Origin: Patescibacteria group bacterium
GTDB taxonomy: Bacteria; Patescibacteriota; Patescibacteriia; UBA2591; UBA6264
Direction: 5' to 3'
Assembly (NCBI GenBank): GCA_016784145.1
Contig: JADHVF010000002.1
Location: 178,357-222,727, forward strand
Length of the DNA: 44,371 bases
The notes below the pieces were generated by a model. The model was not told where the DNA came from. It saw only the letters and a list, made by a program, of their open reading frames with translations, and searched no databases. This document shows, piece by piece, positions 9,051 to 44,371 of this stretch; position 1 is the first letter of the stretch, and each line of letters starts with the position of its first letter. The position numbers were made by a program, and so were the translations under genes.

Positions 9051-10646
9051 ATGATAAATAAATCCAAGACAAGACAATCTGTCATGTTAGTTATTCTTGA
9101 TGGGTGGGGAGTGGCCGAACCAAATCAAGGCAATGCTATTGAGTTAGCAAACACTCCTTTTTTTGATTTTTTGAAAAATAAATATCCATCCACAGAACTT
9201 TGCGCTCATGGCACTAGGGTTGGTTTACCCAAAAATCAAATAGGCAATTCAGAAGCAGGGCATTTGAATATAGGAGCAGGTAGAATAGTAGAGGATGACG
9301 CAGTTCAAATAAATAAAAGTATTAAAAACACCCGTTTTTTTAAAAATCCTGCTTTTGCTGAAGGCATCAGATATTTAAAAACCAATCAATCAAAAGTTCA
9401 TTTAATGGGGCTGATAACTGAAGAAAACAGTGCTCATTCTTCTCCAGAACATTGGCTGGCCATGATTAATCTTTTAAGAAAACAGAATATTAAAGAGGTA
9501 TTTCTTCATCTTTTTACTGATGGCAGGGATTCTCCACAACATCAAGCAGTCAAAATTTTAGAAAGGTTTGTTAAAGATTTTAAAGAAAATAATCATAATT
9601 CACATTTTAATAATAAAATAAAAGTTAGAATTGCTAGTGTTTGCGGGCGGTTTTATGCAATGGATAGAAAGAAAAAATGGGAGAGCACTGAACAAGCATA
9701 TGATTTATTAGTCTTGGGCAAGGGCAGAAAAGCCCGGACTGCTAAACAAGCAATTGTGCAGGCCTATAATAGAAATGAAACAGATGAATTTATTTCGCCC
9801 ACAGTAATAACTAACCATGTTAACAAGCCAGTTGCTTTAATAGATGATAATGATTTGGTTGTTTTCATGAACTTGCGTTCAGACAGGGCTAGAGAACTTT
9901 CCAAAGCATTTTGTCAGATAGAATTTAATAGCCAAAATCCAAATAGTTTTAAAAGAAAAAAAATAGTAGATGTTTTTTTTATAGCTTTAACTGATTTTGG
10001 TCCTGATTTAGGAGATATTAGAGTTGCTTATCCATCAATAGAAGTTAAGGATAGTTTACCAATTGCTTTAACTGGATTAACTCAGTTTTATATTGCTGAA
10101 ACAGAAAAATATGCTCATGTTACATTTTTCTTTAACGGAGGACATGCTGGCCAAGTAGCTAATGAAGAGCAAAAACTTATTCCATCTAAAGATGTTAAAA
10201 CCTATGATGTTGTGCCAAACATGAATTCAGATATTGTTTGTGATGAAATAATAAATAAAATTAAAGATGACCATCCTGATTTTATTGTTGTTAATTTTTG
10301 CGACCCAGACATGATAGGACATACAGGGAATTTGCAAGCAGGCATAAAAAGCATTGAACATCTTGATGTTGTTTTAAAAAAATTAGTTAAAAATAGTCAA
10401 GCAAATAATTATACTACCATTATTACGGCTGACCATGGCAATATAGAGAAAATGATAGACCTAGATACCAGTGAAATTCATACCAGTCACACGACAAATC
10501 CAGTACCATTTATTTTGGTTGATGAAAAATTCAAGACAATTAAATTAAGAAACAAGGGCAAGTTAAGTGATATTGCTCCGACTATTTTAGATATAATGAA
10601 GCAAGACAAACCAGCTAAAATGACTGGCAAAAGTTTGCTTATATAA
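9051..10646 (+). CDS. gpmI: 2,3-bisphosphoglycerate-independent phosphoglycerate mutase, paralog 1
   Basis: 531 aa with VILDGWG, GNSEAGHLNIGAGR (catalytic Ser), TDGRDSP, GRFYAMDRKKKWE, NLRSDRAREL, AETEKYAHVTFFFNGG, DPDMIGHTGN, TADHGN and HTTNPVPF. Confidence 0.85.
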   Translation: MINKSKTRQSVMLVILDGWGVAEPNQGNAIELANTPFFDFLKNKYPSTELCAHGTRVGLPKNQIGNSEAGHLNIGAGRIVEDDAVQINKSIKNTRFFKNPAFAEGIRYLKTNQSKVHLMGLITEENSAHSSPEHWLAMINLLRKQNIKEVFLHLFTDGRDSPQHQAVKILERFVKDFKENNHNSHFNNKIKVRIASVCGRFYAMDRKKKWESTEQAYDLLVLGKGRKARTAKQAIVQAYNRNETDEFISPTVITNHVNKPVALIDDNDLVVFMNLRSDRARELSKAFCQIEFNSQNPNSFKRKKIVDVFFIALTDFGPDLGDIRVAYPSIEVKDSLPIALTGLTQFYIAETEKYAHVTFFFNGGHAGQVANEEQKLIPSKDVKTYDVVPNMNSDIVCDEIINKIKDDHPDFIVVNFCDPDMIGHTGNLQAGIKSIEHLDVVLKKLVKNSQANNYTTIITADHGNIEKMIDLDTSEIHTSHTTNPVPFILVDEKFKTIKLRNKGKLSDIAPTILDIMKQDKPAKMTGKSLLI

Positions 10647-10655
10647 ATAAAAATT

Positions 10656-12239
10656 ATGATAACCAATTCTAATAAAATAAAACCAGTAGTTTTAATCATA
10701 TTAGATGGATTTGGGGTTGCTCCTCCTAGTCAAGGAAATGCAATCTCTTTAGCTAAAATGCCAGTTTTTAATCAATTAGTAAATGCTTATCCGTCCATGG
10801 TTATTCAGTCTTCAGGAGAGGCAGTTGGGCTTAGTTGGGGAGAGCCGGGAAATTCAGAAGTGGGACATCTTAACATAGGGGCTGGTAAAATTGTTTGGCA
10901 AAGCTTGCCCATGATTAACCAAGCAATCATTGATAATAGTTTTTTCAGCAATAAAGAATTTTTACAAGCAATTAATCATGCTAAAGAAAATAATTCAGAC
11001 CTTCATTTAATGGGGCTTATTTCTAATGGCAATATTCATTCTTCTTTAAACCATCTTTATGCTCTTTTAGAAATGGCTAAAAAAAATAACTTTACCAGAG
11101 TATATATCCATGCTATTTTAGATGGACGAGATAGTCCTAGAGATTCAGCCCAGAGATTTATTAACGATGTTTTAGATAAAATAAAATCAATTGGCGTGGG
11201 ACAGATTGCTACTTTATCAGGCAGGTTTTGGGCAATGGATAGAGACAATAGATGGGATAGAATAGAGGTTTCTTATTTGGCAATAGTTAAAGGGTTGGCA
11301 GAAAAAGAATACACAGACCCTTTGAAAGCAATTCAAGAGTCGTATAAACAAGAAGTTTACGACGAGCAATTAAAGCCAGTTGTTATTAAAAAAGAGATTA
11401 ACCAGGAGTCATTTAAAATAAAAGATAATGATGCAGTTATATTTTTTAATTTTAGAGCAGACAGGGCCAGAGAATTAACCAGGGCATTAGTTTTAGATGA
11501 TTTTAAACAATTTAAAACAATTAAAATAAAAAATTTATTTTTTTGCACCATGACAGAATATGAGCAGGATTTGCCAGTAAAAATTGCTTTTCCATCTGTT
11601 AGGATTGAAAATCCATTAGCAAAAGTAATCAGTGATAAGGGGCTAAAACAAATGCATATTGCTGAAACAGAAAAATATGCTCATGTTACATTTTTTTTAA
11701 ACGGGGGAAGGGAACAGGCTTTTGATGGCGAAGACAGGAAATTAATTCCTTCACCAGGAATTTCATCTTATGACGCCAAGCCAGCTATGTCAGCTTATGA
11801 AATTCTTCATCAAGCGCTTTTTTCTATTGATAGTCAAAAATATAAGTTTGTGGCAATTAATTTTGCTAACCCAGACATGGTCTCCCATACTGGAAATTTA
11901 CCTGCCACCATAGAAGCATTGGAATCATTAGATGAAATTCTGGGACAAATTGTAGATATTTCTTTAAAAAATAATACAGCTGTTTTGATTACGTCTGACC
12001 ATGGCAATGCAGAAGTTTTAGTTAATCTAAGGACAGGAGAGATAGACAAAGAACATAATAATAATCCAGTCCCACTTATTATTATTGATAATAGTTTAAA
12101 AAAAGAAGATGCTTTATTGAGCCAAGTAGACCTAAATACAATGACACCTAGTGGTGTTTTGGCAGATATTGCTCCTACAATATTAAAAATAATGGGCATT
12201 GATAAACCAGATGAAATGACTGGCACGCCTTTAATATAA
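10656..12239 (+). CDS. gpmI: 2,3-bisphosphoglycerate-independent phosphoglycerate mutase, paralog 2
   Basis: 527 aa with ILDGFG, GNSEVGHLNIGAGK, LDGRDSP, GRFWAMDRDNRWDR, NFRADRAREL, AETEKYAHVTFFLNGG, NPDMVSHTGN, TSDHGN and HNNNPVPL. It is closer to the canonical iPGM consensus than paralog 1. Confidence 0.85.
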   Translation: MITNSNKIKPVVLIILDGFGVAPPSQGNAISLAKMPVFNQLVNAYPSMVIQSSGEAVGLSWGEPGNSEVGHLNIGAGKIVWQSLPMINQAIIDNSFFSNKEFLQAINHAKENNSDLHLMGLISNGNIHSSLNHLYALLEMAKKNNFTRVYIHAILDGRDSPRDSAQRFINDVLDKIKSIGVGQIATLSGRFWAMDRDNRWDRIEVSYLAIVKGLAEKEYTDPLKAIQESYKQEVYDEQLKPVVIKKEINQESFKIKDNDAVIFFNFRADRARELTRALVLDDFKQFKTIKIKNLFFCTMTEYEQDLPVKIAFPSVRIENPLAKVISDKGLKQMHIAETEKYAHVTFFLNGGREQAFDGEDRKLIPSPGISSYDAKPAMSAYEILHQALFSIDSQKYKFVAINFANPDMVSHTGNLPATIEALESLDEILGQIVDISLKNNTAVLITSDHGNAEVLVNLRTGEIDKEHNNNPVPLIIIDNSLKKEDALLSQVDLNTMTPSGVLADIAPTILKIMGIDKPDEMTGTPLI

Positions 12240-15445: not shown

Positions 15446-17074
15446 ATGGAAAGAAATAAAATTTGGACAATTTTTGTTTTTATCATCGCTTTAGCTGTTT
15501 TATCTTTACTAATTGATATTCCTCAGTTGCCAGAATGGGTGCCAGGGAATAAGTGGTTTTCAAAACAAAAGATTCATTTAGGATTGGACTTGCAAGGAGG
15601 AGCTCAGTTAACCTATCAAATGAATCTTGATGATATCCCAAGCAAGGACAGGGCTTCTTCTATTGATGGTGTTAGAGATGTTATTGAACGGCGGGTTAAT
15701 GTCTGGGGAGTGTCAGAGCCAGTTGTACAAACAGCTAATGTAGGTAATTCTTGGAGATTACTGGTTGAGTTGCCAGGCATCAAAGATGTTAACAAGGCAA
15801 TTGCTATGATTGGAGAAACTCCTATTTTGGAATTCAAGGAGCAAGCACCAGTTAAAGAAATTACGGCAGAAGAAAAACAAGCAGTAAAAAATTTTAATGA
15901 AGAAGTTAAAGTCAAAGCAGACCAAGCATTAGTTATGGCTTTAAAAGGAGAACAAGAATTTTCAGAATTAGTAGCCGAGTTTTCTCAAGAGCCAGGCGCA
16001 GATGAAAACAAGGGAGTGCTTGATTGGTTTAAAAAAGGAGTCATGTTGCCGGAATTTGAAAAAGTTGTTTTCGAAGATTTGAAAGTTGGAGAGATTACAC
16101 AAGAGTTAGTAGAAACACAATTTGGATATCATATTATTAAAAAAATTGATGAAAGAACAAATGAAGATGGAGAATTAGAAGCAAAAGCTAGTCATATTTT
16201 GTTTTTTATTCAATCAGAGCAAACAATGATTAAGCAGCCAGAATGGAATTATACAGGGTTAACAGGCAAACAATTAAAAAGAGCTTATGTTACCTTTAAT
16301 TCGCAAACAAATGATCCAGAAATTTCTTTAGAGTTTAATAAACAAGGAACAAAATTATTTGGTGAAATTACAACTAGAAACGTTGATAAACCAGTTGCTA
16401 TTTTCCTTGATAATATTCCTTTAAGTATTCCAACAGTTAGAGAACCAATTACCACGGGCATGGCAGTGATTACAGGGAAATTTGCCTTAAAAGAAGCAAA
16501 GCAATTATCACAACGATTGGTGGCAGGTGCTTTGCCAGTTCCAATAGAATTGATTGGTCAACAGAACATAGGTCCTAGTTTGGGAAAAATTTCTGTCCAA
16601 GAAAGTTTTGTGGCTTGTTTGTTAGGTTTTTTGATTATTATAATTTTCATGATTTCTTTTTACAGATTTAGGGGATTGTTGGCTAGTTTTGCCTTGCTTA
16701 TTTATGCTTTAATTGTAATGGCTTTGTTTAAGTTAATCCCAGTCACTCTTACTTTAGCTGGAGTAGCTGGTTTTATTTTGTCTTTAGGCATGGCAGTTGA
16801 TGCTAATATTTTAATATTTGAACGATTAAAAGATGAGGAACGTATTGGCAAGCATATTTTTGCTGCTATAGATGACGGGGTTGCTCATGCTTGGACAGCT
16901 ATTAGGGATAGCAATATTACAACTTTAATTGTTTGTTTTATTCTTTATAGTTTTGGGACAGGTTTGGTAAAAGGATTTGGATTAACCCTTGGCATTGGTG
17001 TTTTGGTTAGCATGTTTACAGCTATTGTTGTCACAAAAACATTTTTAAAATTAACAGCTCGAGAACATGATTAA
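15446..17074 (+). CDS. secD: Protein translocase subunit SecD with inserted parvulin-type PPIase domain
   Basis: 542 aa. N-terminal TM segment, LGLDLQGG, P1 base ([24 protein letters not shown]), a C-terminal 6-TM SecD/F core (GPSLG..[27 protein letters not shown]). Residues ~140-256 match the PpiC/Par10 rotamase domain (see finding). Confidence 0.9.
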   Translation: [542 protein letters not shown]

Positions 17075-30133: not shown

Positions 30134-30154
30134 TTATATGTTATAATGTTTTTA

Positions 30155-30880
30155 ATGAAAAAAAGAAGAGAAGAAATTCTAAAATTAATTACAGAAGAAT
30201 ATATAAAAACAGCACAACCAATTGGGTCTGATTATCTTTTTAATAAATTTAAAATAAAAGTAAGTCCAGCCACAATCAGAAATGAGATGATAGCGTTAGC
30301 CAAGAAAGATTATATTTACCAACCCTATACTTCAGCTGGTCGGGTGCCGACTATTAAAGGATTTAAGTATTATGTAGAAAAATTAATTTTTTCTAAAACA
30401 GGAGAAGAAATAGCTATTCCAAAACTTTCCAAAAAAGAATTAAATATTTTGGCTAATATAATAAAGCAAGATGTTTTAAACCAAGCTTTGATGAAAACAA
30501 TTATCAGAAAAATGGCTTTAATGTCTAATGAATTAAGTTTTCTATCAATTGATAATGATTTTTTCTTTTACACGGGCTTGAGTCACTTGTTTAATCAGCC
30601 AGAGTTTTACGAATCAAACGCGGTTTGTGATATTTCAAATATAATTGACCATTTAGATAAAATAGTGATAAATATTTCTGATTCAATGGAACAAGAAACA
30701 GAAATATTTATAGGTAGAAAAAATTTACTTGATGATTTTTGTAGTGCTGTTTTAACTAACTTTTCATCTACTAATAGTAATAAACAAATTTTAATTGGTA
30801 TTCTGGGCCCGACTAGAATGGATTATGGCAAGAATATAGCTTTAATAAATGAAGTTAAAGGGATGTTTTTTAATATATAA
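30155..30880 (+). CDS. hrcA: Heat-inducible transcription repressor HrcA (short form, ~241 aa)
   Basis: The ORF track starts at 30146. The preferred start is MKKRREEILKLI at 30155, downstream of the -10 box. The N-terminal winged-helix signature is PIGSDYL..VSPATIRNEMIALAKKDYIYQPYTSAGRVPTIKGFKYYV. Confidence 0.8.
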   Translation: MKKRREEILKLITEEYIKTAQPIGSDYLFNKFKIKVSPATIRNEMIALAKKDYIYQPYTSAGRVPTIKGFKYYVEKLIFSKTGEEIAIPKLSKKELNILANIIKQDVLNQALMKTIIRKMALMSNELSFLSIDNDFFFYTGLSHLFNQPEFYESNAVCDISNIIDHLDKIVINISDSMEQETEIFIGRKNLLDDFCSAVLTNFSSTNSNKQILIGILGPTRMDYGKNIALINEVKGMFFNI

Positions 30881-30888
30881 AAGTTTTT

Positions 30889-31356
30889 ATGACAAGCAAA
30901 GAAAAACAAACAAGCAAGACCACAGCTAAAATAGCTAAACTAGAACAAGAAAAAGAGCAATATCTTAATGGCTGGAGAAGAACAAAAGCAGATTATATGA
31001 ACAGAGAAAAAGAGATAGCAAAAGAAAAAGAAAATTGGATAAAATTTGCTAATTCAGAATTAATTTTAGATTTGTTGCCAATTTTAGATAGTTTTGATGG
31101 TCTTTTAAAGGATTATTCAAACACAGTCAAACAAGAAAAATGGGTTAAAGGCATAAAGCAGATTAAAAAACAATTAGAAGATTTTTTAAAAAAACAAGGA
31201 ATAACTAGAATAAAAACAAACGGAGAGGAATTTGACCCTCTTTATCATGAAGCAGTAGGTAAAGTAGGTGATTTAGGGAAGATAGACAAAGAAGTTCAAG
31301 CAGGTTATCTAGTAAAGGGAAAAGTAATTCGTTCATCCAAGGTAATTATTAAATAA
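30889..31356 (+). CDS. grpE: Nucleotide exchange factor GrpE (short, 155 aa)
   Basis: Motifs: ..YLNGWRRTKADYMNREKE.., LLPILDSFD, and the C-terminal beta-domain FDPLYHEAV..V.AGY...GKVIRSSKV. Confidence 0.8.
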   Translation: MTSKEKQTSKTTAKIAKLEQEKEQYLNGWRRTKADYMNREKEIAKEKENWIKFANSELILDLLPILDSFDGLLKDYSNTVKQEKWVKGIKQIKKQLEDFLKKQGITRIKTNGEEFDPLYHEAVGKVGDLGKIDKEVQAGYLVKGKVIRSSKVIIK

Positions 31357-33381: not shown

Positions 33382-33442
33382 ATTGCGTGAATTCATTTAG
33401 TTGTATTTGACAAAATTGGATTTTTTAATGATGATTAAAGAT

Positions 33443-34378
33443 ATGAAAGAAACAAACATCAACTTAATCTTAAAAACAAAAATAAATGTCAAGATATTAT
33501 GTTTAGTAATATTCTTTTTTCTGTTTGGAATGAATTTTTGGTTGTCATTGTTTAATTTTTTTCAATTAGGCAATAGTAATGTTTTTGGTTTGATTTATTT
33601 AATTTTGAGTTGGTTATCTTGGTTGATTATTTCATCAATATTTTACCTTTTAATAGATAATCGCAAGATTATTTATCCATTTATTTTGGTTGTTTGGGTA
33701 TTTTTCTTTTTTTTCTTTCCTGTTTTTATTTATTTACCTTGGTTGTTGAGCGGATTTATTTTAACAGTATTAGGGTATGAATTAATAAGAAAAGAAAAAA
33801 AACAAAGAATAGATCTTTGCTTAAGGAAAATATATAAAAAAGGGATTGGATTGATTCTTGTTAGTGCTTGTTTGCTTGTTTCAGTAGTATATTATTATAA
33901 TCCATTACTCAAATTAGATCAAAATAAAATAGAAATTCCAGTTGAGTTTACAAGCATGATATTAATGCCAGCGTCTGCATTTATAAATAAAATTATTCCA
34001 ATATATGACCAAGAAGCAACCATAGAAGACATGCTTTCAATAGGAGTAGTGCTAGGGGGGAGCTTGGACTTATCTCTGATTGATGCTAAAAAACAAGAAT
34101 TAAGTGATTCATTGGGAGTTGATATCAAGGGGAATGAAACAATTGATATGCTTATAACAAATATGATCAATTTTCAAATAAACCAATTTGTAGGGCCTTA
34201 CTCCAAAGAAATTTCAGTTGGTATTGCTGTGGCTTTGTTTTTTTTGTTTAAGTTTTTCGGAAAATTTTTATGGTTATTCGGATTTATTATAAGCAAAATA
34301 GTTATTCAAATGCTTTTGTTTTTTAATTTTATTAAAAAGGAGCGCGGTTCCAAATTAGCTGAAGTATTAAAAATTTAA
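33443..34378 (+). CDS. Hypothetical polytopic membrane protein
   Basis: ORF 33401..34378. The start is uncertain; MKETNIN at 33443 is preferred because a TTGACA motif lies at about 33408. It has several TM segments at each end and a ~100-aa central loop, with no motif I recognise. Confidence 0.45.
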   Translation: MKETNINLILKTKINVKILCLVIFFFLFGMNFWLSLFNFFQLGNSNVFGLIYLILSWLSWLIISSIFYLLIDNRKIIYPFILVVWVFFFFFFPVFIYLPWLLSGFILTVLGYELIRKEKKQRIDLCLRKIYKKGIGLILVSACLLVSVVYYYNPLLKLDQNKIEIPVEFTSMILMPASAFINKIIPIYDQEATIEDMLSIGVVLGGSLDLSLIDAKKQELSDSLGVDIKGNETIDMLITNMINFQINQFVGPYSKEISVGIAVALFFLFKFFGKFLWLFGFIISKIVIQMLLFFNFIKKERGSKLAEVLKI

Positions 34379-34458: not shown

Positions 34459-35079
34459 ATGCCAATAAAGTCAAAAGAAAAAAAGAAAACAACCAAGCAA
34501 GTAACAAAACCAGTTAAAAAAACTGTGTCAAAAACTGTTGTCAAGAAAGTTGCTCCAAAGAAAAAAGTTGTGAAAAAGGTTGTAAAGAAAGTTGCTCCAA
34601 AGAAAAAAGTTGTGAAAAAGGTTGTAAAGAAAGTTGCTCCAAAGAAAAAAGTTGTAAAAAAAATTGCTCTAAAGAAAACAATCAAACAAGAACAAGTAAT
34701 TTGGGCTACTGGCAAGAGAAAAACATCTATTGCTAGAGTTATATTTTTTTCAAAAGGAAGCGGGGAAATATATGTAAATAAACAACCGTATAAAAAATAT
34801 TTTAATATATTAGAATTAAAAAACAAAGTTGTTTCTCCGATTGAATTATTAAAACAAGCAGATAATTTCCAGTTTAAAATAAAAGTTCAAGGAGGAGGAC
34901 AAACAGGACAAGCAGATGCTATTCTTTTAGGAATATCAAGAGCATTAATTAAATTTAACCCTGATTGGAGAAAAGAGCTAAAAGCAGCCGGATTTTTAAA
35001 AAGAGATGCTAGAAAAAAAGAAAGAAAAAAACCAGGATTAAAGAGAGCTAGAAGAGCTCCTCAATGGAAGAAGCGTTAA
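34459..35079 (+). CDS. rpsI: 30S ribosomal protein S9 with ~78-aa Lys/Val/Ala/Pro-rich N-terminal extension
   Basis: 206 aa. The C-terminal ~128 aa form a canonical S9 (GKRKTSIARV.., GGGQTGQADAILLGISRAL, GFLKRDARKKERKK.GLKRARRAPQW.KR). The N-terminus is a low-complexity repeat. Confidence 0.9.
   Translation: MPIKSKEKKKTTKQVTKPVKKTVSKTVVKKVAPKKKVVKKVVKKVAPKKKVVKKVVKKVAPKKKVVKKIALKKTIKQEQVIWATGKRKTSIARVIFFSKGSGEIYVNKQPYKKYFNILELKNKVVSPIELLKQADNFQFKIKVQGGGQTGQADAILLGISRALIKFNPDWRKELKAAGFLKRDARKKERKKPGLKRARRAPQWKKR
34549..34674 (+). repeat. In-frame 42-bp tandem repeat (14 aa, VAPKKKVVKKVVKK), two identical copies plus a diverged third
   Basis: Copies at 34549-34590 and 34591-34632 are identical. 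The third copy (34633-34674) diverges after about 23 nt. Confidence 0.9.
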
Positions 35080-41155: not shown

Positions 41156-41922
41156 TTATAGTCAACTACAATCAAAAAAATTTATTAAAACAATGTTTAA
41201 GAAATATATCAGAAGCAGATATTAAGATTGATTATGAGATTATTATTATTGATAATAATTCAGAAGATGAAAGCAAGGAGTTTTTAGCAGGACTTTATTC
41301 AGAACCAAATATTAACATTATTTTAAATAATACTAATAATGGATTTGCTATGGCAAATAATCAGGGGATTAGGTTGTCAAAATATAAGTATGTTTTAAGC
41401 TTGAATCCAGATGTTATTGTTCAGTCAGGCGCTATTGAAAAACTTTATAATTTCTTGGAAACAAATTCAGGTGCAGGAATTGTTGCCCCTCAGTTACTTA
41501 ATCCGGATAAAACAATTCAAAATTCTTGTTGTCGTTTTCCAAAATGGTATATTCCTATTTTAAGAAGAACATTTTTAGGGAAAATGCCAATTTTAAAAAA
41601 AGAATTATCTAAATACTTAATGCTTGATTTTGACCATCAACAAACTAGAGAAATTGATTGGGCGATTGGTGCTTGTTTGATGATTAGAAAAAAAATGTTA
41701 AATAAAATTGGCTTGTTTGATGAAAAATATTTTTTATATTTTGAAGATGTTGATTTAGCTCGCCGAGCATGGAAAGCAGACTTCAAAGTTCATTATTATC
41801 CAACCGCGGTTATGTTTCATTTTCATCAAAGAGTTTCAGCAGAGAAATCATTATGGTTGTCAATTTTTTCAAAAATAACCTGGATTCATATTGCCAGCGC
41901 TTTCAAGTATTTTTTGAAATAA
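41143..41922 (+). CDS. Glycosyltransferase family 2
   Basis: 259 aa with VSIIIVNYN, IIDNNSEDES, NNGFAMANNQG, SLNPDV, GACLMIRKKMLNKIGLFDEKYFLYFEDVDLARR. It overlaps the upstream gene by 13 nt. Confidence 0.8.
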   Translation: MVSIIIVNYNQKNLLKQCLRNISEADIKIDYEIIIIDNNSEDESKEFLAGLYSEPNINIILNNTNNGFAMANNQGIRLSKYKYVLSLNPDVIVQSGAIEKLYNFLETNSGAGIVAPQLLNPDKTIQNSCCRFPKWYIPILRRTFLGKMPILKKELSKYLMLDFDHQQTREIDWAIGACLMIRKKMLNKIGLFDEKYFLYFEDVDLARRAWKADFKVHYYPTAVMFHFHQRVSAEKSLWLSIFSKITWIHIASAFKYFLK

Positions 41923-41980
41923 TTAGTCCTTATCTTGATTTTATTTTGGTTTTTTGATATTATAAATATATTGTCATTGT

Positions 41981-42054
41981 TCCGGGGTCGTCTAATGGCA
42001 GGACGTCAGGTTTTGGTCCTGAAAATTGGGGTTCGAGTCCCTGCTCCGGAGCCA
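41981..42054 (+). tRNA. tRNA-Gln (anticodon UUG), CCA encoded
   Basis: Acceptor TCCGGGG/CTCCGGA with the U1-A72 pair and G73 discriminator typical of bacterial tRNA-Gln. D arm GTCT-AATGGCA-GGAC, anticodon arm TCAGG-TTTTGGT-CCTGA, T loop TTCGAGT. Confidence 0.85.
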
Positions 42055-42177
42055 TAAATCAGAACAAAGTTCTAATTTATGCCGTGAACCGAATTTATTC
42101 TGGTTCATGTAAATAATCAGTTAATGCCAAAAATTGTGTAAAATACGAAAAACATCTTTTTAAAAGTGTTTTTTTGT

Positions 42178-42207
42178 TTTACATTTTATTAGAAAAAGTG
42201 CTATAAT
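42178..42207 (+). promoter_or_regulatory. Candidate promoter for the DUF262/DUF1524 gene (TTTACA-18-TATAAT with TGc extension)
   Basis: The -35 TTTACA is at 42178-42183 and the consensus -10 TATAAT at 42202-42207, preceded by TG at 42199-42200. Confidence 0.45.
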
Positions 42208-42273
42208 TACAGTATACAAATATAATGTAAATAAAAAATTTAGCTAAATTTGTAATATGGAAAAAATTAATCT

Positions 42274-44355
42274 ATGAAAGCAACTGAAATAAAATTAATA
42301 GATTTTCTTAAAAAATCGCCCCAGTTTGTTATTCCTATTTACCAACGTACTTATAGTTGGAACGAGAAGCAGTGTTTACATTTATGGGAGGATATTTTGC
42401 GTACAGGGAGTAACAAAAATATTGCCGCGCATTTTATTGGCTCTATCGTTTATGTAGAAAAGGGCCTTTATTCTGTTGCGGGTCAATCACAACTTCTTGT
42501 GATTGATGGTCAACAAAGACTTACCACAATAACTTTACTAATTGAGGCACTTGCCCGCACTCTCAGAGGAAGTGAGCCGATAGAAGGATTCTCAGAAAAA
42601 GTGCTTCGTGATTATTACCTTCTCGATCCGCGTGAAGAAGGAGAAAAGAAGTATAAACTCATTTTATCTCAAACTGATAAAGCGTCATTAACAGCATTGC
42701 TTGATAACAGTCCTGAGCCGAAAGATTATTCTGTACGAATTAAAAAAAATTTTGAATTTTTTATAGATAAAATCGATGAAGAGAAAAATAACCTTGCGTC
42801 GATATGCAAAGGCTTAGCAAAGCTTATTATTGTAGACATATCTCTTAGTCGTGATCAGGATAATCCTCAACTCATCTTTGAAAGCTTAAACTCGACAGGA
42901 CTTGAGCTAAGCCAGGCAGATTTGATTCGTAATTATATTTTAATGGGATTAGAGCCCGAGCTTCAGTTTAAATTGTACAACCAATATTGGCGACCGATGG
43001 AAATAGATTTTGGCCAGAAGGGTTACGCCTCATACTTTGATCGTTTTATGCGACATTATCTTACCGTGAAGACAAGTGTTATTCCTAAAGAGCGCGAGGT
43101 ATACGAGGTATTTAAACAATACGCGCATTCCCAAAAAGATGCGGGGGTTGAAGTTCTTGTCGCTGATATTCGAGTTTTTGCTGAATATTATTGTGCCATG
43201 GTTCTTGGTACTGAAACCGATTCAGAGCTAAAAATGGCCTTTCATGACTTTCTAGAGTTAAAGGCAGATGTTGCATTTCCATTCTTGTTAGAGCTTTATC
43301 ATGATTATGATAAGAAAAATCTTTCTGCGCATGAGTTGCTAAAAATAGTGCGCCTGATAGAGAGTTATGTATTCAGGCGCGCCATATGTAGTATACCAAC
43401 CAACTCGATGAATAAGACTTTTAGCACCTTTTCTCGTAATCTCAAAAAGGATCGCTATTTAGAGAGCGTGCAAGCAACATTTCTACTTCTTCCATCTTAT
43501 AGGCGTTTCCCTGATAATGAAGAGTTCAAACGAGAAATTAAGCTTAAGAATGTTTATAACTTCCGTAGTCGGAGTTATTGGTTGCGCCGATTAGAAAATT
43601 ATGAAAGAAAAGAACGCGTACCTGTAGTCGAGTATACTATTGAGCACATTATGCCACAAAATGAAAATCTATCAGCTGAGTGGAAATCAGAGCTTGGGTC
43701 TGAGTGGGAACGTATTCAAAACACTTATCTGCATACATTGGGCAATCTCACTCTAACCGGCTATAACTCTGAATATAGCGATAGGCCGTTTATGGAAAAA
43801 CGAAATATGAAAGGAGGCTTTGCGGAAAGCCCATTACGATTGAATAAAGGGGTTGCTGAAAAAGAACATTGGACTGAACAAGAAATATTAAATCGAGCAG
43901 AGGTATTATCGGAACAGGCAACCAAGGTTTGGTTTGCCCCCACATTGGAACGTAGTATTTTAGATGCATACAAACCGAAGGCAGAAGTGACAGAGTATAG
44001 CATAGAAGACCATCCTTATCTATCAACAGAGCCCACGAGAGGTTTATTTGAAGAATTTCGTAAACAGGTTAAAGCACTAGATCCGTGTGTAACTGAGACA
44101 TTTTTAAAACAGTATGTAGCATATAAGATGGAAACTAATTTTGTTGACGTTGTTCCTCAGGCAAAGCGATTACGTCTTTTGTTGAACATTGCATTTTCGG
44201 AAATTAATGATCCAAGGGGAATTTGTAGAGATGTCTCAGCGATTGGTCGATGGGGTAACGGCGATGTCGATGTCGGCCTTTCAGTGATCGAGGACATGGC
44301 TTATGTTATTGGATTGGTTCGTCAAGCATTTGAGAAGCAAATGGGAAATGGATAA
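42274..44355 (+). CDS. DUF262/DUF1524 two-domain nuclease, GmrSD-like (type IV modification-dependent restriction family) with an extra C-terminal domain
   Basis: 693 aa. The N-terminal DUF262/ParB-like NTPase signature is IPIYQRTYSW.., FIGSIV, VIDGQQRLTT and FESLNSTGLELSQADLIRNY. The C-terminal His-Me finger (DUF1524) signature is YTIEHIMPQN....LHTLGNLTLTGYNSEYSD. The last ~120 aa form a separate module. Confidence 0.8.
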   Translation: MKATEIKLIDFLKKSPQFVIPIYQRTYSWNEKQCLHLWEDILRTGSNKNIAAHFIGSIVYVEKGLYSVAGQSQLLVIDGQQRLTTITLLIEALARTLRGSEPIEGFSEKVLRDYYLLDPREEGEKKYKLILSQTDKASLTALLDNSPEPKDYSVRIKKNFEFFIDKIDEEKNNLASICKGLAKLIIVDISLSRDQDNPQLIFESLNSTGLELSQADLIRNYILMGLEPELQFKLYNQYWRPMEIDFGQKGYASYFDRFMRHYLTVKTSVIPKEREVYEVFKQYAHSQKDAGVEVLVADIRVFAEYYCAMVLGTETDSELKMAFHDFLELKADVAFPFLLELYHDYDKKNLSAHELLKIVRLIESYVFRRAICSIPTNSMNKTFSTFSRNLKKDRYLESVQATFLLLPSYRRFPDNEEFKREIKLKNVYNFRSRSYWLRRLENYERKERVPVVEYTIEHIMPQNENLSAEWKSELGSEWERIQNTYLHTLGNLTLTGYNSEYSDRPFMEKRNMKGGFAESPLRLNKGVAEKEHWTEQEILNRAEVLSEQATKVWFAPTLERSILDAYKPKAEVTEYSIEDHPYLSTEPTRGLFEEFRKQVKALDPCVTETFLKQYVAYKMETNFVDVVPQAKRLRLLLNIAFSEINDPRGICRDVSAIGRWGNGDVDVGLSVIEDMAYVIGLVRQAFEKQMGNG

Positions 44356-44371
44356 GGGAATATAGGTGGTT

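What the first reader, a model, noticed from the sequence alone, without database searches (positions are those of the whole stretch)
41981..44371. Compositionally foreign GmrSD-type (DUF262/DUF1524) defence gene inserted directly downstream of tRNA-Gln
From about 42.27 kb the sequence changes character.
- Individual 60-nt lines I counted are about 45-48% G+C, against about 22-30% in neighbouring host genes.
- CGC/GCG/CCG-type codons appear that are nearly absent elsewhere in the window.
- The encoded protein lacks the Lys/Ile/Asn bias of the host proteins.

The gene sits 220 nt after tRNA-Gln(UUG), a classic island integration site. It has its own near-consensus promoter (TTTACA-18-TGcTATAAT). 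Hairpins precede it at 42056-42080 and 42090-42113.

The protein combines a DUF262 ParB-like NTPase (IDGQQRLTT) with a DUF1524 His-Me finger nuclease (EHIMPQN..HTLGNLTL). That is the architecture of GmrSD, BrxU and SspE-type enzymes that cleave modified phage DNA.

An additional ~120-aa C-terminal module (..FEEFRKQVKALDP.VTETFLKQYVAYKMETNFVDVV..KRLRLLLNI..) reminds me of the DUF5655-type domain. That is from memory and unverified.

The window ends 16 nt after the stop codon, so partner genes (BREX, Ssp, Dnd, type I R-M, integrase) and the far island boundary cannot be seen.
Basis: partly seen in the sequence, partly recalled or inferred. Interest (0 to 1): 0.62.

Follow-up and report, generated by a model that had tools for sequence, protein, structure and literature searches.

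The report
Acquired GmrSD-type restriction gene beside tRNA-Gln
A candidate-phylum (Patescibacteria) bacterium has picked up from elsewhere a single anti-phage nuclease gene of the GmrSD family, placed just after a tRNA gene and in front of a type I restriction-modification operon; it is a typical, not a new, kind of defence gene.

Summary
ORF 42274-44355 (693 aa) has three domains: GmrSD_N/DUF262, GmrSD_C/DUF1524 and DUF5655. The DGQQR and E-H..N..N motifs are intact. It starts 219 nt after tRNA-Gln(UUG) and has an 11/12 sigma-70 promoter.

It is a clear compositional outlier:
- GC3 z = 4.5.
- Synonymous-codon z = -6.

An independent contig extends the locus past the window. After the stop come the last 23 codons of a truncated XRE HTH gene, then a type I hsdM. 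The hsdM is also codon-atypical.

Metagenome contigs branch near 42054/42113 and near 44413. In one sample the gene's contig depth is about half that of the host flank. In another assembly the same gene sits before hsdR. No integrase or att repeat was seen.

Homologues are 70-89% identical across bacterial phyla and archaea. In 46 of 80 loci they lie next to or inside R-M operons.

Best reading: a horizontally acquired, stand-alone, HEC-06-like type IV restriction enzyme embedded in an R-M island. DUF5655 is probably a double-wing DNA-binding module, on weak fold evidence. It is a new member of a known kind, of modest interest.

The parts
41981..42054 (+). tRNA-Gln (anticodon UUG); last host feature before the variable region
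   Evidence: ARAGORN and Rfam RF00005 at 53.4 bits. In run X1 the host-flank contig ends exactly at 42054 and an alternative continuation follows it.
42053..42109 (+). Two adjacent hairpins just after the tRNA. This short conserved tRNA-distal segment probably holds the tRNA terminator. The left boundary of the variable cargo lies at about 42105-42113.
   Evidence: Fold energy is -19.5 kcal/mol, z = -4.9. Segment 42044-42104 also follows a different tRNA T-arm in other contigs. An alternative sequence continues after 42113. Logan contigs that carry the gene begin at 42080-42084.
42178..42207 (+). Sigma-70-type promoter with an extended -10 (TTTACA, 18 nt spacer, TG-n-TATAAT), 67 nt upstream of the ATG
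   Evidence: Matches 11 of 12 positions with TG present; the best site in 41800-44371. Function is inferred, not shown.
42274..44355 (+). CDS of 693 aa: a GmrSD-family (HEC-06-like) NTPase-nuclease with a C-terminal DUF5655 domain
   Evidence: ORF list, Pfam, PADLOC. There are more than 8000 homologues; the best 120 are 70-89% identical over the full length. Compositional outlier.
42301..42939 (+). GmrSD_N / DUF262 ParB-like NTPase domain (aa 10-222). The DGQQR motif is aa 78-82, nt 42505-42519.
   Evidence: PF03235, E 5e-38. D78 G79 Q80 Q81 R82 are invariant in 118 homologues. The equivalent Q79A and R80A mutations abolish defence in HEC-06 (bioRxiv 10.1101/2024.01.29.577857).
42940..43506 (+). 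Alpha-helical linker region between the two catalytic domains
   Evidence: In the AlphaFold2 model, aa 228-404 are almost all helical with pLDDT 85-97.
43507..43914 (+). GmrSD_C / DUF1524 His-Me finger nuclease domain (aa 412-547). E457-H458 (nt 43642-43647), N491 and N498 are the motif residues.
   Evidence: PF07510, E 5e-25. E457, H458, N491, N498 and D503 are invariant. It aligns to the DndI and SspE nuclease motifs. E471A and H472A kill HEC-06.
44029..44337 (+). DUF5655 domain (aa 586-688; the structural domain spans about aa 556-693). Fold is alpha-beta4/5-alpha; it is a putative double-wing DNA-binding module.
   Evidence: PF18899, E 7e-12. The domain model has pLDDT 92.4. The best PDB fold matches are weak: YjbR 2FKI and DUF1801 2OC6. 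Phage DUF5655 proteins match at E 2e-5 and MotA C-terminal domains weakly.
44356..44371 (+). First 16 nt of the 3' flank. Beyond the window, in window-equivalent coordinates, the truncated XRE HTH gene tail runs 44382-44453 and hsdM starts at 44459.
   Evidence: L001 is 100% identical to the window over 42000-44371 and extends it. The HTH tail matches residues 48-70 of the 70-aa HTH that precedes hsdM in L093. The hsdM fragment has N6_Mtase and HsdM_N domains.

Best explanation
The gene encodes a stand-alone defence nuclease of the GmrSD superfamily, in the subfamily that PADLOC calls Orf5/HEC-06-like. A Patescibacteria chromosome acquired it horizontally as a single-gene cassette of about 2.3 kb with its own promoter.

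The cassette sits in a variable, tRNA-Gln-linked defence locus. Its right end replaced the first two thirds of the small XRE-type HTH gene that normally heads a type I R-M operon. As a result the nuclease gene now lies directly upstream of hsdM, in the same orientation, and is probably co-transcribed with it.

Proposed mechanism (inferred):
- The N-terminal ParB-like DUF262 domain binds and hydrolyses NTP through DGQQR.
- It controls, across a long helical linker, the C-terminal DUF1524 His-Me finger nuclease (E457/H458/N491/N498).
- The nuclease cuts invading DNA.
- As in GmrSD, Eco94GmrSD and BrxU, the preferred substrate is most likely hypermodified phage DNA that escapes the neighbouring type I R-M system. 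The two systems would then cover each other's blind spots.
- The extra DUF5655 domain is most likely an additional DNA-binding (double-wing, YjbR/MotA-CTD-like) module that helps select or hold the substrate.

Shown here: domain architecture, motif integrity, foreign composition, genomic context and population polymorphism.

Inferred only: antiviral activity, preference for modified DNA, the role of DUF5655 and co-transcription.
For: Architecture and motifs:
- Pfam domains. PADLOC Orf5 at E 6e-188 and HEC-06 at E 4e-69 over aa 6-554.
- Catalytic columns are invariant in 118 homologues.
- The nearest solved structures are DndI, SspE and BrxU.
- HEC-06 defends E. coli on its own, and mutations in its DGQQR and EH motifs abolish defence.

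Foreign origin:
- GC3 z = 4.5 and codon z = -6.0, with all four domains equally atypical.
- Homologues are 70-89% identical in Patescibacteria, Bacteroidales, Dehalococcoidia, Pseudomonadota and Methanosarcinales. The flanking host glycosyltransferase has no relative above 66% identity.
- None of the relatives with the same GT-GT-tRNA-Gln synteny carries the gene.
- Nucleotide similarity to six other homologue loci (L087, L088, L091, L096-L098) is confined to the ORF.

Polymorphism:
- The host-flank contig has depth 23.7 and the gene contig 11.7 in run X1. Alternative continuations follow 42054 and 42113.
- Contigs from independent samples start at 42080-42084 and end at window-equivalent 44413.
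- The identical protein sits upstream of hsdM in L001 and of hsdR in L003.

Context:
- HTH remnant and hsdM downstream.
- No promoter or terminator between the stop codon and hsdM.
- 46 of 80 homologue loci have R-M parts within 5 kb. 81 of 98 such neighbours are co-oriented. In 8 loci the hsdM stop overlaps the gene's start.
- Machnicka 2015 and Payne 2024 report the same association.
- The E. coli KE47 homologue lies in the immigration control region beside hsdRMS.

DUF5655.
Against: - No biochemical or phage data exist for this protein, or for any DUF5655-bearing member that I could find.
- The two closest solved relatives by sequence and fold, DndI and SspE, do not target modified DNA. They sense the host's own phosphorothioate mark.
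- The substrate of HEC-06 is not known.
- No integrase, transposase or att repeat explains how the cassette moved. Flanks are not shared with the homologue loci compared.
- The depth ratio comes from assembler word depths of contigs, not from reads.
- The DUF262 core, including DGQQR, is poorly modelled: pLDDT below 50 for aa 1-22 and 57-78.
- The fold matches of DUF5655 are weak: E about 0.1, TM 0.44-0.52.
- Transcript evidence is one 238-nt metatranscriptome contig, and DNA carry-over is not excluded.
Confidence: 0.7

Rival explanations
1. Self-mark-sensing nuclease rather than a type IV enzyme. Like DndI and SspE, the protein would read a modification made by the host as 'self', release that DNA, and nick or cut DNA that lacks the mark. 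Here the mark would be m6A laid down by the adjacent HsdM or another methyltransferase, or phosphorothioate made elsewhere in the genome. DUF5655 would be the mark reader.
For: - DndI (9JFL) is the closest solved structure by sequence (E 7e-18) and by fold (E 5e-12). SspE is next.
- Both are phosphorothioate sensors.
- A DNA methyltransferase lies immediately beside the gene in many loci: hsdM overlaps its start in 8 loci, and an N6_N4 methyltransferase lies directly downstream in 8.
- One HsdS-DUF5655 fusion exists (P0373).
Against: - No dnd or ssp genes are in the 44-kb window or in the 1.5 kb downstream. None appeared among the Pfam-annotated neighbours of the nine homologue loci inspected.
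- The neighbouring methyltransferases belong to unrelated classes, or are absent: 34 of 80 loci show none within 5 kb with my seeds. That argues against one cognate mark.
- HEC-06, a much closer relative by HMM than DndI, works alone in an E. coli strain deleted for R-M systems.
- The same nuclease sits before two different type I operons (L001 and L003).
Confidence: 0.15
2. Not an acquisition: an old resident gene whose higher GC only reflects a strongly constrained protein sequence. The tRNA adjacency would be coincidental.
For: - The protein is extremely conserved, with 79% mean column identity. This constrains GC1 and GC2.
- In other hosts the gene's GC tracks host GC: 0.51 in a 0.53 host, 0.34 in a 0.29 host.
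Against: - GC3 and synonymous-codon likelihood are conditional on the amino acids, yet they are the strongest outliers (z = 4.5 and -6.0).
- The gene is absent from all relatives that share the GT-GT-tRNA-Gln synteny.
- Its depth is about half that of the flank in X1, and the contig graph branches at both ends.
- It is 78% identical to a Bacteroidales protein and 70% to a Methanosarcinales protein.
Confidence: 0.03
3. Assembly or binning chimera: the nuclease contig belongs to another organism and was wrongly joined to the Patescibacteria contig at the shared tRNA-distal sequence.
For: - Unitigs break at 42054 and at 42080-42113.
- Segment 42044-42104 occurs in at least one other genomic context.
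- Depths differ across the junction.
Against: - An independent ENA assembly from another sample (L002) spans glycosyltransferase, tRNA-Gln and the whole gene at 99.97% identity. L003 starts at 42059.
- In run X6 the flank depth (6.8) and gene depths (5.6-6.5) agree.
- The intergenic region 42114-42273 is as AT-rich as the host's (19.5% GC).
Confidence: 0.03

Closest known systems
HEC-06 (Hma-embedded candidate 6; Payne et al. 2024, bioRxiv 10.1101/2024.01.29.577857) and PADLOC 'Orf5' models
   Same: - Same DUF262, helical linker and DUF1524 layout.
- HMM matches cover aa 6-554 against nearly the whole profiles: HEC-06 E 4e-69, Orf5 E 6e-188.
- DGQQR and E-H motifs lie at almost the same residue numbers.
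- It is a single gene found embedded in other defence or R-M operons in the same orientation.
   Different: - The PADLOC HEC-06 and Orf5 profiles end at about 540-570 positions and do not cover the window protein's 140-aa C-terminal DUF5655 module, so the profiled proteins appear to lack it.
- The HEC-06 exemplar is embedded in an Hma system and was tested in E. coli. This copy is in a Patescibacteria genome ahead of a type I operon and is untested.
- I could not find what 'Orf5' refers to in the literature.
GmrSD / Eco94GmrSD (type IV restriction of glucosyl-hmC DNA; Bair and Black 2007; He et al. 2015; Machnicka et al. 2015)
   Same: - Both Pfam domains pass their gathering thresholds.
- The enzyme is a fused single chain.
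- It resides in a defence island, and type I R-M genes are the most frequent neighbours.
- The PADLOC mREase_IV model matches at E 8e-30.
   Different: - The mREase_IV match is far weaker than the Orf5 or HEC-06 matches and covers only part of the protein.
- The substrate is unknown here.
- DUF5655 is not among the extra domains listed for the family in 2015 (DUF4268, DUF4357, DNA_binding_1).
DndI (PDB 9JFL; Tang et al. 2024, PMC11662687) and SspE (6JIV/7DRI)
   Same: - These are the closest solved structures: DndI at sequence E 7e-18 and Foldseek E 5e-12, and the SspE C-terminal domain at Foldseek E 2e-4.
- Same NTPase and His-Me nuclease logic.
   Different: - Identity is only 13-19%.
- DndI and SspE work with linked phosphorothioation genes and sense that mark. 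No such genes are linked here.
- They have no DUF5655.
BrxU (PDB 7P9K/7P9M; Picton et al. 2021, PMC8565348)
   Same: - A GmrSD-family type IV enzyme embedded in another defence system (BREX). It protects against phages with modified DNA that escape that system.
- This is the functional logic proposed here for the pairing with type I R-M.
   Different: - The similarity is remote: Foldseek E 1.5e-3, TM 0.27-0.31. It is not detected by phmmer.
- There is no BREX context.
RloF-type ORFs in type I R-M loci (Miller et al. 2005, as cited in PMC4619093) and the E. coli immigration control region
   Same: - DUF262-containing genes nested among hsdM, hsdS and hsdR.
- A 60%-identical full-length homologue lies next to hsdRMS-symE in E. 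coli KE47.
   Different: - In the window the gene precedes hsdM and has its own promoter. It does not lie between hsdS/hsdM and hsdR.
- The E. coli KE47 copy is broken.

Membership tests
GmrSD family (Pfam PF03235 + PF07510) | N-terminal DUF262/ParB-like domain with the DGQQR nucleotide-hydrolysis motif | tested here: met
   PF03235 scores 131.6 bits against a cutoff of 33.2. D78GQQR82 is present and invariant in 118 homologues.
GmrSD family (Pfam PF03235 + PF07510) | C-terminal DUF1524 His-Me finger (HNH-type) nuclease motif | tested here: met
   PF07510 scores 88.5 bits against a cutoff of 23. E457-H458, N491 and N498 are invariant. They align with the DndI and SspE motifs.
GmrSD family (Pfam PF03235 + PF07510) | Both domains in one chain, joined by a long helical linker | tested here: met
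   The AlphaFold2 model has a helical region over aa 228-404 with pLDDT 85-97.
GmrSD family (Pfam PF03235 + PF07510) | NTP-stimulated cleavage of modified (hmC or glucosyl-hmC) DNA, which defines type IV activity | not testable with these tools
   Requires purified protein, or phage assays with T4 wild type, T4 gt and T4 with unmodified C.
HEC-06 / PADLOC Orf5 subfamily | Full-length match to the subfamily HMMs | tested here: met
   PDLC02693 (Orf5): E 6e-188, aa 10-553 against profile positions 1-542 of 543. PDLC04155 (HEC-06): E 3.6e-69, aa 6-554 against positions 10-559 of 562.
HEC-06 / PADLOC Orf5 subfamily | Antiviral activity as a single gene | not testable with these tools
   Shown for the HEC-06 exemplar only.
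Phosphorothioate-sensing DUF262 nucleases (SspE, DndI) | Genetic linkage to sspABCD or dndBCDE modification genes | tested here: not met
   - The ORFs of at least 120 aa in the window that were scanned are core or envelope genes; the two at 30146-31356 were not scanned.
- Downstream is hsdM.
- No Dnd or Ssp families appear among the annotated neighbours in nine homologue loci.
- The rest of the genome was not visible.
Phosphorothioate-sensing DUF262 nucleases (SspE, DndI) | Close sequence relationship to SspE or DndI | tested here: not met
   The PADLOC SspE models match only aa 7-99 (E 2e-18). DndI is 19% identical.
BrxU | BREX context and BrxU-level similarity | tested here: not met
   There are no BREX genes nearby. 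Foldseek gives E 1.5e-3 and TM about 0.3. BrxU is absent from the phmmer PDB hits.
DUF5655 (PF18899) | Match above the Pfam gathering score | tested here: met
   45.8 bits against a cutoff of 24, over aa 586-688. The domain search finds 1440 representative clusters at 50% identity, and those checked are almost all GmrSD fusions.
tRNA-linked genomic island | Lies directly 3' of a tRNA gene, with deviant composition | tested here: met
tRNA-linked genomic island | Presence/absence polymorphism, or variable content at the site | tested here: met
   - Contig branches lie at 42054 and 42113, and the gene contig has half the flank depth in X1.
- L001 and L003 have different downstream genes.
- Content after tRNA-Gln varies in seven relatives.
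tRNA-linked genomic island | Integrase gene and a direct repeat of the tRNA 3' end at the far boundary | tested here: inconclusive
   Neither is present in the 1.5 kb readable past the window. The far boundary is not available.
Type I R-M operon (downstream partner) | HsdM with HsdM_N and N6_Mtase domains and the NPPF motif | tested here: met
   L001 2460-3839: N6_Mtase E 3e-67, HsdM_N E 1.5e-9. The sequence contains 'ANPPFG'. It is 95% identical to P0121, whose operon also has hsdS. The hsdS and hsdR of this genome were not seen.

The most novel reading that the evidence does not exclude
The DUF5655-bearing enzymes may form a distinct and unusually conserved subfamily of GmrSD-like nucleases. 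They are at least 70% identical from Patescibacteria to Methanosarcinales.

In this reading, the C-terminal domain is a MotA/YjbR-type double-wing reader of the DNA modification state. It would set substrate choice in concert with the methyltransferase of the R-M operon in which the gene is nested. The choice could go either way: a new class of hypermodified phage DNA, or DNA lacking the neighbour's methyl mark.

The XRE HTH gene that heads CPR type I operons would act as the recombination point through which such cassettes and whole R-M modules are swapped.
Probability: 0.2. Interest if true: 0.55.

Novelty: new member of a known kind. Interest (0 to 1): 0.3.

Why it matters
Patescibacteria have tiny genomes and are generally described as relying largely on R-M-type immunity (my own knowledge, not checked here). 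This locus shows one of them stacking a type IV-like nuclease on a type I system at a polymorphic tRNA-linked site. That fits the established 'embedded defence' picture.

Three practical points follow:
- DUF5655 now has a confident model and a testable DNA-binding hypothesis. It is an uncharacterised domain that, in the sample I checked, occurs almost only on GmrSD-like nucleases.
- The family's extreme conservation across domains of life makes any one member a good proxy for thousands of others. One example is the E. coli or cyanobacterial plasmid copies, which are 54-66% identical.
- The truncated HTH gene marks a precise insertion junction. It could be used to study how single defence genes move without a visible recombinase.

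Tried and rejected
- I looked for the source contig beyond the window. The exact protein is recorded on a 222,727-bp contig, but only six short contigs could be fetched. The genome-contig collection did not hold the source species; the best flank relative is 66% identical.
- I tried to walk on through hsdM. The best hit was 95% identical, from a different organism. The hsdS, hsdR and far boundary of this genome therefore remain unseen.
- A search for direct repeats of the tRNA 3' end, or any cassette-flanking repeats, found only short chance-level matches.
- The alternative continuations seen in metagenome contigs were not found in any fetched locus.
- Shared cassette ends with six other homologue loci were rejected. 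Nucleotide similarity starts within 15 nt of the ATG and stops at the stop codon.
- tRNA adjacency as a family trait was rejected. Only the window and L087 (both tRNA-Gln, both Patescibacteria) among 81 loci have it, and their intergenic DNA is unrelated.
- NCBIfam gave no match for the nuclease.
- PHROGs gave only an unannotated family.
- A DUF5655 profile found nothing significant among PDB sequences.
- A literature search for PADLOC 'Orf5' found nothing.
- The full-length AlphaFold2 model is unreliable in the DUF262 core, so I drew no conclusions about the nucleotide pocket from it.


Full report
**1. The observation**

The window is a 30% G+C stretch of core chromosome. Its genes include:
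- glycolysis enzymes, SecA, SecDF, LepA, TopA, MurG, MurC, DnaK and ribosomal protein S9;
- a run of envelope-polysaccharide genes that ends with two family-2 glycosyltransferases.

- tRNA-Gln(UUG) lies at 41981-42054.
- Two strong hairpins follow at 42053-42109, with dG -19.5 kcal/mol and z = -4.9.
- An AT-rich spacer follows, 19.5% GC at 42100-42299.
- Within the spacer is an 11/12 extended -10 promoter at 42178-42207.
- A 693-codon ORF runs 42274-44355, and the window ends 16 nt later.

The ORF is a compositional outlier on every measure.

| Measure | ORF | 31 host ORFs | z |
|---|---|---|---|
| GC | 0.385 | 0.296 +/- 0.027 | 3.2 |
| GC3 | 0.323 | 0.213 +/- 0.025 | 4.5 |
| Synonymous-codon log-likelihood under the host model | -1.685 | -1.195 (mean) | -6.0 |

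- The codon likelihood falls below the lowest host ORF.
- Arg is CGN in 34 of 43 codons.
- CGC is used 10.1 times per 1000 codons, against 0.4 in the host.
- The four protein domains are equally atypical.
The host average is 30%, not 22-30%.

**2. The protein**

Pfam finds three domains: GmrSD_N/DUF262 (aa 10-222), GmrSD_C/DUF1524 (aa 412-547) and DUF5655 (aa 586-688). All score above their gathering thresholds.

PADLOC's best models cover aa 6-554 end to end:
- 'Orf5' (PDLC02693) at E 6e-188;
- HEC-06 at E 4e-69.

The mREase_IV and SspE models match far more weakly, or only at the N-terminus.

The catalytic residues are all present, and all are invariant in an alignment of 118 homologues: D78-G-Q-Q-R82, E457-H458, N491 and N498.

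In HEC-06, Q79A/R80A and E471A/H472A abolish phage defence. That protein protects E. coli as a single gene in an R-M-deleted strain (bioRxiv 10.1101/2024.01.29.577857).

The nearest solved structures are:
- DndI (9JFL): phmmer E 7e-18, Foldseek E 5e-12;
- the SspE C-terminal domain: Foldseek E 2e-4;
- BrxU: Foldseek E 1.5e-3.

DndI and SspE are phosphorothioate-sensing enzymes (PMC11662687). This is the basis of the main rival explanation.

**3. Beyond the window**

The exact protein occurs on six short contigs from other samples.

L001 is 100% identical to the window from 42000 onward and adds 1.48 kb. After the stop codon it shows three things:
- 26 nt of spacer.
- The last 23 codons of an XRE-type HTH protein (...SPTIDTVKKIAKALNVPVAELFK*), with no start codon and no HTH motif. 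These codons align at 57% identity to residues 48-70 of the 70-aa HTH protein that immediately precedes hsdM in the closest hsdM relative's operon. That operon is L093 (Kaiserbacteria), ordered HTH-hsdM-three unknowns-hsdS.
- A type I hsdM with HsdM_N and N6_Mtase domains and the NPPF motif. It is 95% identical to P0121.

The right end of the insertion therefore lies inside the HTH gene, at about window-equivalent 44382.

The hsdM fragment is itself a codon-usage outlier (z = -3.4; GC3 z = 2.4). The foreign region therefore continues past the window.

No promoter-like or terminator-like site lies between the nuclease stop and hsdM. I infer read-through from the nuclease promoter.

**4. Polymorphism**

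L003, from another sample, encodes the identical protein and the same first 58 nt after the stop. It then diverges into a different HTH tail (...KIADALGVSLDVLMK*) followed by an HsdR N-terminus.

Three Logan contigs begin at 42080-42084, and two of them (plus the L003 alignment) end at window-equivalent 44413.

Laying contigs of four marine or estuary metagenomes on the window showed:
- In X1 the host-flank contig stops exactly at the tRNA 3' end. Its depth is 23.7, and the contig carrying the gene has depth 11.7.
- In X6 the two depths are similar (6.8 against 5.6-6.5).
- Other sequences continue after 42054 and after 42113.
- Segment 42044-42104 also follows a different tRNA T-arm in another contig.

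These are assembler word depths, so the 'about half' figure is approximate. Even so, the graph clearly branches at both ends of a unit of about 2.3 kb.

An independent assembly (L002) spans glycosyltransferase, tRNA and gene at 99.97% identity. This argues against a chimera.

**5. Relatives of the host**

The nearest glycosyltransferase relatives are Patescibacteria at 58-66% identity.
- They keep GT-GT and a downstream tRNA-Gln(UUG), but at variable distance.
- Unrelated genes follow the tRNA.
- None has the nuclease.

The site is thus variable in this lineage. No integrase and no repeat of the tRNA 3' end was seen in what could be read.

**6. The family at large**

More than 8000 database proteins match. 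The best 120 are 70-89% identical over the full length. They come from Patescibacteria, Bacteroidales, Dehalococcoidia, Gammaproteobacteria and a Methanosarcinales archaeon. Plasmid copies in cyanobacteria, Roseobacters and E. coli are 54-66% identical.

Gene GC follows host GC in other loci, and nucleotide similarity to the six homologue loci compared is confined to the ORF. The gene therefore moves as a bare ORF and then ameliorates. The window copy is not yet ameliorated.

I surveyed 80 homologue loci:
- 46 have recognisable R-M components within 5 kb; of the 33 loci with at least 3 kb on both sides, 22 do.
- 36 of the 46 are type I.
- 81 of 98 R-M or SNF2 neighbours are co-oriented with the gene.
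- In 8 loci the hsdM stop overlaps the gene's start.
- A second recurrent arrangement is SNF2-gene-Mod-Res.

This agrees with published reports that type I R-M genes are the commonest GmrSD neighbours (PMC4619093). It also agrees with reports that GmrSD-like genes are embedded in Hma and type I systems.

In E. coli KE47 a 60%-identical copy, now broken, lies in the immigration control region beside mrr-hsdRMS-symE.

A tRNA directly upstream occurs only in the window and in a Liptonbacteria locus. There it is tRNA-Gln(CUG), 193 nt upstream, with unrelated spacer DNA.

**7. DUF5655**

The literature holds only one passing mention of this domain.

A search with the domain against 1.84 billion cluster representatives finds 1440 clusters at E <= 1e-3. 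I checked ten hits with non-standard lengths:
- nine carry one or both GmrSD catalytic domains or are DUF5655-only repeats; two of them have three tandem DUF5655 copies;
- one is an HsdS-DUF5655 fusion.

With a diverse 28-sequence alignment, the domain models at pLDDT 92.4 as helix, four to five strands, helix.

Fold searches gave these matches:

| Library | Match | Scores |
|---|---|---|
| PDB | YjbR (2FKI) | prob 0.89, TM 0.44/0.49 |
| PDB | DUF1801 YdhG (2OC6) | prob 0.84, TM 0.47/0.52 |
| Viral | phage DUF5655 proteins | E 2e-5 |
| Viral | T4-type MotA C-terminal domains | E 0.11-0.14 |

Context from the literature:
- YjbR and the MotA C-terminal domain share the 'double wing' DNA-binding fold.

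I therefore propose DNA binding for DUF5655. This is a low-confidence, fold-level inference.

**8. Expression**

One metatranscriptome run holds a 238-nt contig at 43908-44145 (depth 31.8) and a contig over the tRNA. This is weak evidence, because DNA carry-over cannot be excluded.

**9. Verdict**

The feature is a horizontally acquired GmrSD-family (HEC-06-like) defence nuclease with a DUF5655 tail. It sits at a variable tRNA-Gln-linked site at the head of a type I R-M operon, whose HTH controller gene it truncated.

It is a new member of a known and very common kind. Three elements are mildly interesting: the DUF5655 hypothesis, the exceptional conservation of the subfamily, and the precise HTH-gene junction.

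Noticed in passing
L011:10965-14796: In a related MAG, two copies of tRNA-Gln(UUG) lie 3.7 kb apart. They are identical over the 78 nt compared. Between them are a radical-SAM protein and two paralogous proteins of unknown function. This looks like an island bounded by a whole-tRNA duplication at the same site.
   Followed up: partly
L087:9734-12091: A 79%-identical homologue in a Liptonbacteria genome also starts 193 nt after a tRNA-Gln, here with anticodon CUG. The spacer DNA is unrelated to the window's. These are the only two tRNA-adjacent cases among 81 loci.
   Followed up: partly
L003:2298-2712 (window-equivalent 44356 onward): In another sample the identical nuclease gene is followed by a different HTH tail and by an HsdR N-terminus instead of hsdM. 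The downstream type I module has therefore been exchanged, apparently by a crossover inside the conserved HTH tail.
   Followed up: partly
window 42044-42104: The last 11 nt of tRNA-Gln plus the first hairpin region occur, with two mismatches (including A42074G), after a different tRNA T-arm (..GGCGGTTCGAACCCGCC). This is seen in contigs of four metagenome runs, at depths equal to or above the window strain's.
   Followed up: no
window 43908-44145: A metatranscriptome run (X15) has a single 238-nt contig at depth 31.8 over the linker/DUF5655 junction only. The rest of the gene has none.
   Followed up: no
window 9051-12239: Two tandem paralogues of cofactor-independent phosphoglycerate mutase (531 and 527 aa) follow PGK and enolase.
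   Followed up: no
window 15446-17074: SecD carries an inserted PPIC-type peptidyl-prolyl isomerase (rotamase) domain at aa 131-236, between its P1 subdomains.
   Followed up: no
window 34459-35079: Ribosomal protein S9 has an extension of about 84 aa at its N-terminus with no Pfam match.
   Followed up: no
window 33401-34378: A 325-aa ORF between dnaK and rpsI has no Pfam family at E <= 0.001.
   Followed up: no
L218:8892-10865 (E. coli KE47, NZ_CP141089.1 1406891-1408864): A 60%-identical homologue lies in the E. coli immigration control region next to mrr-hsdRMS-symE. It is split into a GmrSD_C-containing ORF and a DUF262 pseudogene.
   Followed up: partly
P0373, P0294, P0384 (representative proteins): DUF5655 also occurs fused to a type I HsdS target-recognition domain (P0373). 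It occurs as three tandem copies behind a GmrSD_C domain or alone (P0294, P0384).
   Followed up: partly
L093:9295-9997: The closest hsdM relative's operon (HTH-hsdM-...-hsdS, Kaiserbacteria) sits about 420 nt downstream of a tRNA-Asn. tRNA-linked R-M islands may be common in these genomes.
   Followed up: no
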